NCBI RefSeq assembly: GCF_056712565.1
Contig: NZ_CM160072.1
Reading direction: 5' to 3' (one strand)
DNA length: 64,000 nucleotides
Shown here: positions 54,386 to 54,468 of the stretch, in pieces
How positions within the stretch are numbered: position 1 is the first letter of the stretch
How the letters are laid out: every line of letters starts with the position of its first letter
Translations under genes and position numbers: made by a program
The notes under the pieces: model-generated
Told to the model about the DNA's origin: nothing
What the model saw: the letters and a program-made list of their open reading frames with translations, nothing else
The model's database searches: none

Positions 54386-54468
54386 CTTGTTGCCTCGTTT
54401 CTGTTCCTTGAATTAAATATTCATTTTTTTGAATATTTAGGTTGTACGACGTGGATTTATCGGGAGCT

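What the first reader, a model, noticed from the sequence alone, without database searches (positions are those of the whole stretch)
54415..54438. Palindrome immediately upstream of yhfX
aaatattca-tttttt-tgaatattt (9-bp perfect inverted arms) lies 30-50 bp upstream of the yhfX start, in the yhfY-yhfX spacer. It is a candidate operator, possibly for the cluster regulator YhfZ.
Basis: seen in the sequence. Interest (0 to 1): 0.2.

Follow-up and report, generated by a model that had tools for sequence, protein, structure and literature searches.

The report
Conserved operator for regulator YhfZ
The palindrome before yhfX is real and almost unchanged across enteric bacteria, and it is most likely the strongest DNA docking site of the neighbouring, still uncharacterised regulator YhfZ, so it is an ordinary kind of gene switch but gives a concrete handle on an unstudied E. 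coli operon.

Summary
The palindrome exists as described, but its arms are 10 bp, not 9: TAAATATTCA-N6-TGAATATTTA at 54414-54439. It lies in the 83-bp yhfY-yhfX spacer, 29-54 nt before the yhfX ATG.

A single such repeat is not rare (0.56 expected per shuffled window). Its conservation is decisive:
- It is identical in 4791 of 5074 E. coli genomes that carry it.
- It is nearly invariant across about ten Enterobacterales genera, while the flanks are scrambled.

Two more sites with the same TTCA-N6-TGAA core lie directly upstream of yhfZ (55756-55781 and 55780-55805), over an inferred promoter. There is none before yhfT.

A matrix built only from yhfZ-proximal sites reproduces the arms of the yhfX site exactly. 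It ranks that site first in the window (36.6 bits; best background 8.5).

Distant YhfZ homologues (32-48% identity) carry the same 4-6-4 palindrome before their own genes and often before the structural genes. Homologues whose recognition helix starts xRG instead of SVG have TACA-N6-TGTA (one has TACG-N6-CGTA).

Verdict: a DNA operator of YhfZ, probably repressive, gating yhfX-yhfS. RNA-hairpin, ArgR, CRP and terminator readings fail. Protein binding is untested. This is a new member of a known kind, of modest interest.

The parts
54414..54439 (.). Site C, the finding: a 26-bp palindromic operator, TAAATATTCA-AAAAAA-TGAATATTTA as read on the coding (minus) strand. The core TTCA-N6-TGAA is at 54433-54420.
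   Evidence: Perfect 10-bp arms. Near-invariant across Enterobacterales. Top hit in the window, 36.6 bits, with a matrix trained only on yhfZ-proximal sites.
55756..55781 (.). Site B, a related operator (core TTCA-N6-TGAA at 55775-55762). Its 26-bp span ends 2 nt before the yhfZ ATG; its last conserved position (the T of TGAAAAT, 55759) lies 5 nt before the ATG. It covers the inferred transcription start.
   Evidence: 3-mismatch match to the site C pattern. Sequence. Conserved in all enterobacterial loci. 33.5 bits.
55780..55805 (.). Site A, a related operator (core at 55799-55786), 24 bp upstream of site B. Its right arm supplies the inferred -10 hexamer GAAGAT.
   Evidence: 25.7 bits in the window and 30-38 bits in most other species.
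55783..55811 (-). Inferred yhfZ promoter: -35 TTGCGC (55811-55806; TTGCCA in many strains and species), a 17-bp spacer, and -10 GAAGAT (55788-55783).
   Evidence: Read from the sequence and from conservation of TTGCnn at that position. This is inference: no transcription-start data were available, and the tool's own promoter scan did not list this pair.
55829..55844 (.). CRP-like site TGTGA-N6-TCGCC, centred about -60.5/-61.5 from the inferred start.
   Evidence: The TGTGA half is invariant in all enterobacterial loci. As a 2-mismatch match it is not above chance within the window, so its support comes only from conservation and position.
54848..55753 (-). yhfZ, encoding the candidate binding protein: HTH_41 winged-helix domain (residues 24-71) plus the YhfZ_C ligand-binding-type domain (75-301).
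   Evidence: Annotation. Pfam. NCBIfam NF041241, 374 bits. PDB 2OZZ covers the C-terminal domain only.
54469..54831 (-). yhfY, a small PRD-like protein (120 aa) with no RNA- or DNA-binding domain detected. Site C lies directly downstream of it.
   Evidence: Annotation. Only a weak PRD match, E=0.003 and below the cut-off, and a weak TIGR03582 match.
53222..54385 (-). yhfX (PLP enzyme), the first of the structural genes yhfX-yhfW-php-yhfU-yhfT-yhfS (down to 48345) that lie downstream of site C. Its Shine-Dalgarno GAGG is at 54396-54393.
   Evidence: Annotation. Pfam. Sequence.

Best explanation
The palindrome is a DNA operator. It is the consensus, highest-scoring binding site of the local winged-helix regulator YhfZ.

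Inferred binding mode: a YhfZ dimer contacts two 4-bp half-sites (TTCA and TGAA) whose centres are 10 bp apart, on one face of the helix. The A/T-rich 6-bp spacer is probably read indirectly through DNA shape.

The same protein would autoregulate at two weaker sites (A and B) that overlap the -10 region and start site of an inferred CRP-assisted yhfZ promoter.

Site C sits between the regulatory genes (yhfZ, yhfY) and the enzyme and transporter genes (yhfX to yhfS). It therefore most likely gates the structural genes separately from the regulator genes. With no ligand, bound YhfZ would do one of three things:
- block RNA polymerase coming from the yhfZ promoter (a roadblock);
- loop to sites A/B, 1.34 kb away;
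- shut a weak internal promoter.

An unknown ligand bound by the YhfZ_C domain would release it.

Shown here: the motif, its three positions, its conservation, its co-occurrence with YhfZ genes, and its co-variation with the YhfZ helix.

Inferred: that YhfZ binds it, that the effect is repression, and which of the three downstream mechanisms applies.
For: 1. Conservation island. The 25-26 nt element is nearly invariant in 16 sequences from six Enterobacteriaceae genera, while the adjacent spacer is unalignable. It is also recognisable in Obesumbacterium, Chimaeribacter and Buttiauxella. It is identical in 4791 of 5074 E. coli genomes.

2. Site count. The core TTCA-N6-TGAA occurs at three conserved positions per ~9-kb enterobacterial locus, against about 0.14 expected. 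Two sites lie 24 bp apart just before yhfZ and one before yhfX.

3. Independent matrix. A matrix trained on 27 yhfZ-proximal and distant sites, with no site C, has the consensus TAAATATTCA...TGAATATTTA, which equals the arms of site C. Window ranks are C 36.6, B 33.5 and A 25.7 bits. The next hit is 8.5 bits and the maximum over 100 shuffles is 15.0.

4. Distant homologues. YhfZ homologues at 32-48% identity have the same core within about 40 nt of their start: L033, L034, L035, L037 and L072. About 0.01 such cores are expected per upstream region. L037 and L072 also have a site before the PRD-DUF2620-YhfT-PTE genes.

5. Co-variation. Proteins whose recognition helix begins SVG have TTCA-N6-TGAA. 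These are E. coli YhfZ, P0123, P0130, P0128, P0136 and P0141. The four tested xRG proteins have TACA-N6-TGTA (P0131, P0133, P0135) or TACG-N6-CGTA (P0144) at the same place.

6. Strand symmetry. The spacer is A-rich on the sense strand at site C but T-rich at sites A and B, at L037 site 2 and at L072 site 2.

7. Positions that fit a repressor. Sites A/B overlap the inferred -10 and start. In low-GC relatives the site lies just downstream of promoter-like hexamers, for example TTGACA-16-TAAACT in L037.
Against: - No experiment shows that YhfZ binds this DNA, and no published operator or transcription-start data were found.
- No sigma-70-like promoter is detectable at site C (and inspection), so what it controls is uncertain.
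- An operator stronger than the promoter-proximal ones, placed inside an apparent operon, is an unusual layout.
- The co-variation rests on two clades (about six versus four independent lineages), so phylogeny could confound it.
- The reverse test was weak. An exact AT-rich 20-mer version of the motif hit 120 metagenome loci, of which only two carry a YhfZ-like gene and only one (L072) is convincing. The motif is therefore not diagnostic of YhfZ on its own.
- The invariant AAAAAA spacer at site C is stricter than at the other sites and is explained only by analogy.
Confidence: 0.75

Rival explanations
1. The element works as an RNA hairpin in the yhfY-yhfX intercistronic mRNA. It could be a processing or stability determinant, or a target of the PRD protein YhfY in the manner of BglG/LicT antiterminators.
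For: - On the sense strand it folds into a 10-bp stem with a 6-nt loop, -7.4 kcal/mol.
- The five single-side arm changes that keep pairing, all within Escherichia, Trabulsiella and Pluralibacter, are G-U compatible in the sense RNA.
- It lies directly after the gene for a PRD-like protein.
- Vibrio has an unrelated hairpin at the analogous place.
Against: - There are no compensatory changes, and the pair statistics equal those of the shuffles.
- The loop is as conserved as the stem.
- In Obesumbacterium, Chimaeribacter and Buttiauxella the 3' arm carries 1-2 uncompensated changes.
- The same motif at site B cannot form more than a 4-bp stem (-1.5 kcal/mol) yet is conserved.
- The spacer is flipped (T-rich) at other sites, which matters for RNA but not for DNA.
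- The regional fold is unremarkable (z = -0.38).
- There is no Rfam match.
- The stem does not sequester the Shine-Dalgarno sequence, and no terminator follows it.
- YhfY has no detected RNA-binding (CAT) domain.
Confidence: 0.08
2. It is a binding site for a different DNA-binding protein. Candidates are ArgR (which shares the words TGAAT/ATTCA), a CRP/FNR-type factor, or a nucleoid protein attracted by the A-tract.
For: - The arms contain the ARG-box words.
- An 18-bp ARG-box consensus matches 54408-54425 with 3 mismatches.
- The 5-6-5 geometry resembles that of CRP sites.
Against: - The half-site order is inverted relative to an ARG box (ATTCA-N6-TGAAT versus TGAAT-N4-ATTCA).
- There is no tandem second box. 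The real argD operator in the same window shows two 2-mismatch boxes 3 bp apart (38829-38867).
- The flank that creates the 3-mismatch match is not conserved outside Escherichia.
- Site C does not match TGTGA-N6-TCACA.
- The motif follows YhfZ genes into distant low-GC lineages and changes with the YhfZ helix.
Confidence: 0.07
3. It is a factor-independent promoter feature of an internal yhfX promoter, such as an UP-like A-tract or -10-like hexamers in the arms. On this view it is conserved because it drives the structural genes.
For: - An operon list quoted in PMC4448311 treats yhfX as the first gene of a php-yhfSTUWX unit.
- The distance from the element to the ATG is roughly constant, at 28-37 nt.
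Against: - The promoter scan finds nothing there.
- The candidate hexamers (GAATAT, TATTTA) match the consensus poorly, and the -35 position is neither conserved nor consensus-like (and inspection).
- A promoter alone does not explain the dyad symmetry, or the identical motif at yhfZ and in distant loci.
Confidence: 0.05

Closest known systems
Autoregulated local repressors of the GntR/winged-helix type and their palindromic operators (e.g. FadR, GntR, PdhR; recalled from general knowledge)
   Same: - A dimer-type palindrome next to the regulator's own gene and before the genes it controls.
- NCBI names YhfZ a GntR-family regulator.
- One distant homologue gives a weak PF00392 hit.
   Different: - The YhfZ N-terminus matches Pfam HTH_41, not PF00392, at E<=10.
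- The effector domain is YhfZ_C.
- The operator has no GT...AC core. Its cores are TTCA-N6-TGAA or TACA-N6-TGTA.
Phage 434 repressor/Cro operators (ACAA-N6-TTGT; recalled from general knowledge)
   Same: - The same 4-6-4 geometry.
- An A/T-rich central spacer that, in 434, tunes affinity without direct contacts. This offers a reason for the conserved A6 spacer.
   Different: - The protein family and the half-site sequence are unrelated.
- Indirect readout is only an analogy here and was not tested.
Auxiliary or downstream operators inside transcription units (lac O2, gal OI, PurR at purB, CcpA/CodY roadblocks; recalled from general knowledge)
   Same: An operator downstream of the main promoter and within the transcribed region, which could act by looping or as a roadblock.
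   Different: - Here the downstream site is the strongest and best conserved one.
- It lies in an intercistronic spacer, not in a coding region.
- The oligomeric state of YhfZ is unknown.
ArgR ARG boxes
   Same: They share the pentamers TGAAT/ATTCA and the A/T-rich context.
   Different: The half-sites are in the opposite order with different spacing, and there is no tandem box. The true tandem ARG boxes in the window are at argD.
RAT hairpins of BglG/SacY/LicT PRD antiterminators
   Same: A hairpin-capable element next to a gene for a PRD-like protein.
   Different: - No overlapping terminator.
- No CAT domain in YhfY.
- No covariation.
- The motif also occurs in promoter DNA with the spacer flipped.

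Membership tests
Operator of the YhfZ (HTH_41 + YhfZ_C) regulator family | Dyad-symmetric site with 4-bp half-sites separated by a 6-bp A/T-rich spacer | tested here: met
   TTCA-AAAAAA-TGAA within perfect 10-bp arms. The geometry is the same at sites A and B and in the distant loci.
Operator of the YhfZ (HTH_41 + YhfZ_C) regulator family | Co-occurrence with a yhfZ-family gene, including a site just upstream of that gene | tested here: met
   All enterobacterial loci with the yhfZ upstream region present and five of five distant SVG-type loci have such a site. About 0.01 are expected per upstream region. The reverse direction is weak: only 1-2 of 120 motif hits carry a YhfZ-like gene.
Operator of the YhfZ (HTH_41 + YhfZ_C) regulator family | Operator sequence tracks the recognition-helix sequence of the regulator | tested here: met
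   SVG goes with TTCA/TGAA; xRG goes with TACA/TGTA or TACG/CGTA, in four of four tested. The sample is small and divided by clade.
Operator of the YhfZ (HTH_41 + YhfZ_C) regulator family | Direct, sequence-specific binding by YhfZ, and ligand-dependent release | not testable with these tools
   No binding data were found in the held literature. This needs EMSA, footprinting or ChIP.
ArgR operator (ARG boxes) | An 18-bp box wnTGAATwwwwATTCAnw, present as two boxes 2-3 bp apart | tested here: not met
   Only one 3-mismatch match overlaps site C, with no partner. The positive control upstream of argD shows the tandem pair.
CRP site | TGTGA-N6-TCACA | tested here: not met
   Site C is not among the matches with up to 2 mismatches.
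Intrinsic terminator / attenuator | G+C-rich stem followed by a U-tract | tested here: not met
   The stem has nine A-T pairs and one G-C pair, no T-run follows it, and the terminator scan does not list it.
Structured cis-regulatory RNA (Rfam family or covarying hairpin) | Match to a curated model, or compensatory base-pair changes | tested here: not met
   No relevant Rfam hit at E<=10. Zero pairs change on both sides and there are five unpaired cells.
GntR family (Pfam PF00392) operator | PF00392 wHTH in the regulator, and a GT-Nx-AC type operator core | tested here: not met
   The YhfZ N-terminus matches HTH_41 and not PF00392, even at E<=10. Site C has no GT...AC core. NCBI still names the protein GntR-family.

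The most novel reading that the evidence does not exclude
The consensus operator is placed deliberately inside the operon, in a short intercistronic spacer with no promoter of its own. A bound YhfZ would then act as a ligand-controlled roadblock or loop anchor that uncouples the sensor genes (yhfZ, yhfY) from the enzyme and transporter genes.

The same layout recurs in distant lineages with 51-84-bp yhfZ-PRD spacers (L158, L036). That would make it a conserved design feature of this family, not an accident of E. coli.
Probability: 0.3. Interest if true: 0.45.

Novelty: new member of a known kind. Interest (0 to 1): 0.35.

Why it matters
yhfZ-yhfY-yhfX-yhfW-php-yhfU-yhfT-yhfS is one of the conserved E. 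coli clusters whose substrate and regulation are unknown. The held literature contains no operator or regulon for YhfZ.

This work supplies:
- a defined three-site motif;
- a family-wide 4-6-4 rule;
- a candidate specificity determinant (SVG versus xRG at the start of the recognition helix).

Together these give direct experimental handles. Operator mutants or a yhfZ deletion should de-repress the cluster, reporter fusions can be used to screen for the inducer, and the motif can be used to find YhfZ-type regulons in other bacteria.

It remains a conventional transcription-factor binding site, so the conceptual surprise is small.

Tried and rejected
- **Terminator or promoter at the site.** The consensus scan found neither. 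Manual trials of -10/-35 pairs around site C gave no conserved candidate.
- **Rfam.** No meaningful match.
- **RNA structure.** The regional fold z-score is -0.38, and pair counting shows no compensatory change.
- **ArgR.** The geometry fails, and the argD operator served as an in-window positive control.
- **CRP at site C.** No match.
- **FrlR.** I considered it, then rejected it because the frl operon is absent from this strain while the site is conserved.
- **Site upstream of yhfT or elsewhere in the cluster.** None at 12 bits or more.
- **Reverse search in metagenomes.** The exact 20-mer ATTTTCAAAAAAATGAAAAT gave 120 loci but only 2 with a YhfZ-like gene. The low-complexity word is mostly chance in AT-rich DNA, so this test adds little.
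- **Literature and transcription-start data.**
  - Nothing on YhfZ binding.
  - The papers that mention yhfX or yhfZ were irrelevant.
  - PMC4288677 is not held.
  - No supplements are held for PMC4161252.
- **Vibrio and Firmicutes yhfX loci.**
  - The Firmicutes loci have no spacer and no YhfZ gene.
  - The Vibrio yhfZ upstream region lay outside the fetched locus.

Full report
**Setting**

The window is 100% identical to E. coli ATCC 11775 over the query. The yhf cluster lies on the minus strand:
- yhfZ 54848-55753
- yhfY 54469-54831
- yhfX 53222-54385
- then yhfW, php, yhfU, yhfT and yhfS, down to 48345

YhfZ has an HTH_41 winged-helix domain and a YhfZ_C domain, and matches NCBIfam YhfZ_full. 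Only the C-terminal domain has a solved structure, 2OZZ. YhfY is a 120-aa protein with a sub-threshold PRD match.

**The observation**

The sequence is as described, but the perfect arms are 10 bp long: 54414-54423 and 54430-54439, with a 6-nt spacer. On the coding strand the spacer region reads:

yhfY-TGA, 29 nt, TAAATATTCA AAAAAA TGAATATTTA, 28 nt (including GAGG), ATG-yhfX.

One perfect 10-bp inverted repeat is not remarkable on its own. Block shuffles give 0.56 per window, and the window has 13, mostly terminators.

**Conservation**

- Among six divergent E. coli strains the arms are invariant. The only change in the element is one A-to-G substitution in the spacer, while the first part of the intergenic region varies.
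- The 34 nt around the element are identical in 4791 of 5074 genomes and are single-copy.
- Loci found through YhfX show the 25-26 nt element nearly unchanged in other Escherichia species, Citrobacter, Klebsiella spallanzanii, Trabulsiella, Enterobacter and Pluralibacter. Their YhfX proteins are only 74-96% identical, and the 30 nt upstream of the element cannot be aligned.
- In Obesumbacterium, Chimaeribacter and Buttiauxella the left arm and the A6 spacer are intact, but the right arm reads TGATGAT or TGATTAT.

**The same motif at yhfZ**

Searching the window for the site C pattern with 3 mismatches returned one site in the tuf-chiA spacer and one at 55758-55779, directly before yhfZ. The region reads:

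TTGCGC, 1 nt, TTATCTTCA-aattcc-TGAAGATA-TAAACATTCA-ttttat-TGAAAATAT, att, ATG.

The exact core TTCA-N6-TGAA occurs four times in the window, against about 1 expected. Three of the four lie in the two yhf intergenic regions. In the enterobacterial loci it falls at three conserved positions, against about 0.14 expected: sites A and B, always 24 bp apart, and site C. A few loci lose the exact core at site A but keep a high-scoring match there, and several carry one extra coding-region match inside yhfY.

Upstream of site A there is a conserved TTGCnn hexamer 17 bp from GAAGAT, which is the right arm of site A. Further upstream lies an invariant TGTGA-N6-TC(G/A)C element.

Read as a promoter, this places site A over the spacer and -10 region, site B over the start site, and the CRP-like site near -60.5/-61.5. 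This promoter model is inference. The CRP-like match alone is not above chance in the window.

**Is site C the same motif?**

I trained a position matrix on 27 sites that lie next to yhfZ-type genes and excluded every site C. Its consensus is TAAATATTCA-ATATAT-TGAATATTTA, so its arms are exactly those of site C.

| Site | Score (bits) |
|---|---|
| Site C | 36.6 |
| Site B | 33.5 |
| Site A | 25.7 |
| Best other hit in 64 kb | 8.5 |
| Maximum over 100 shuffles | 15.0 |

Apart from the three sites, no position in any enterobacterial locus scanned reaches 12 bits.

**Who binds it?**

A whole-library search shows a diverse YhfZ family, with 668 clusters at 50% identity.

Homologues with the same core. 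Contigs for homologues at 32-48% identity show the same core just upstream of the regulator gene:

| Locus | Site before the regulator gene |
|---|---|
| L033 | AAATCTTCA-taaaaa-TGAATATT |
| L034 | ATTTTCA-aaaaaa-TGAAGAT, ending 3 nt before the ATG |
| L035 | AAAATTCA-aaatat-TGAATATT |
| L037 | one site before the regulator, two more before the PRD-PTE-DUF2620-YhfT-YhfS genes |

About 0.01 cores are expected per upstream region.

L072, a 28% GC contig, has one 35-bit site before the regulator and a 36-bit site before the PRD-like/DUF2620/YhfT genes.

Homologues with a changed core. Four homologues whose recognition helix begins ARG, SRG or GRG instead of SVG have a different core at the same position:
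- L036, L158 and L160 have TACA-N6-TGTA.
- L159 has TACG-N6-CGTA.

L036 and L158 repeat the site in a short yhfZ-PRD spacer of 84 and 51 bp.

This co-variation of helix and operator, together with the co-occurrence, is the main reason to assign the site to YhfZ itself.

**DNA or RNA?**

Several results argue for DNA recognition:
- The hairpin is weak, -7.4 kcal/mol, and the regional fold is ordinary, z = -0.38.
- Rfam finds nothing.
- Across 14 distinct sequences no pair changes on both sides. Five cells are unpaired, and the statistics equal the shuffles.
- Site B can form only a 4-bp stem yet is conserved.
- The spacer is A-rich on the sense strand at site C but T-rich at sites A and B, at L037 site 2 and at L072 site 2. 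That is irrelevant for a symmetric DNA site but not for an RNA loop.
- The stem does not cover the Shine-Dalgarno sequence, and no terminator follows it.

**Other proteins**

The words TGAAT and ATTCA recall ARG boxes, but the order and spacing are wrong and there is no tandem box. The real tandem boxes in this window lie 33-71 bp upstream of argD. CRP does not match site C. FrlR is excluded because the frl operon is missing from this strain.

**Mechanism**

Positions over the -10 and start site at yhfZ point to repression. So do positions just downstream of promoter-like hexamers in low-GC relatives, for example TTGACA-16-TAAACT in L037.

At site C I could find no promoter (and inspection). 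The options are therefore a roadblock to read-through from the yhfZ promoter, looping to sites A/B about 1.34 kb away, or control of a weak promoter that the scan missed. I cannot separate these options computationally.

**Limits**

- No binding or transcription-start data were available.
- The reverse metagenome test was uninformative, because the AT-rich 20-mer is common by chance.
- The co-variation sample is small.

**Verdict**

The element is a new member of a known kind, a local-regulator operator, with a useful family-wide motif. Interest is modest.

Noticed in passing
window 55829-55844: A CRP-like site, TGTGA-N6-TCGCC, upstream of yhfZ. Its TGTGA half is invariant from Escherichia to Obesumbacterium, and it is centred about -60.5/-61.5 from the inferred start, which suggests catabolite control of the cluster. 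As a 2-mismatch match it is not above chance in the window.
   Followed up: partly
window 38829-38867: Two ARG-box matches (2 mismatches each) 3 bp apart, 33-71 bp upstream of argD. I take this to be the ArgR operator of argD; it served here as a positive control.
   Followed up: partly
window ~48235-48345 (yhfL-yhfS junction) and 55754-55912 (trpS-yhfZ spacer): This strain lacks the frl operon that lies before yhfS in K-12 (frlR is adjacent there). Its trpS-yhfZ spacer is about 130 bp shorter than in K-12, where a paper reports a BIME repeat before yhfZ (PMC2965389).
   Followed up: partly
L001 (K-12 assembly NZ_CP025268.1) 3222-4099 and 6948-7854: In this K-12 assembly both php and yhfZ are annotated as frameshifted pseudogenes. 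I did not check whether this is real or an assembly error.
   Followed up: no
window 55754-55775: yhfZ has no recognisable Shine-Dalgarno sequence. Only A/T-rich operator sequence precedes the ATG, and the inferred 5' UTR is about 23 nt.
   Followed up: no
window 54386-54413: Downstream of site C a GGA, and GAAAcGAGGC (with the Shine-Dalgarno), are partly conserved across genera. The spacing from site C to the ATG stays at 28-37 nt.
   Followed up: no
L022 (Vibrio sp.) 1377-1402 and ~3915-3940: A 27.5-bit match to the YhfZ matrix lies inside the php coding region. An unrelated hairpin with a GAAA loop (CAGCGCATCA-gaaa-TGATGTGCTG) lies before yhfX.
   Followed up: no
window 54913-54937: A perfect 10-bp inverted repeat (CAACAACTGC..., 5-nt spacer) inside the 3' part of yhfZ.
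   Followed up: no
window 18690-18745: The AT-rich tuf-chiA spacer holds several partial matches to the half-site and to ARG-box words. The best YhfZ-matrix score there is only 8.5 bits, so this is probably composition.
   Followed up: partly
window 48031-48048: A 1-mismatch match to the ARG-box consensus (AATGAATATTAATTAATA) in the AT-rich cysG-yhfL spacer.
   Followed up: no
L036, L158, L159, L160: A large sub-branch of the YhfZ family has a recognition helix starting xRG and accounts for about 60 of 130 full-length clusters. It appears to use TACA-N6-TGTA or TACG-N6-CGTA operators instead of TTCA-N6-TGAA.
   Followed up: partly
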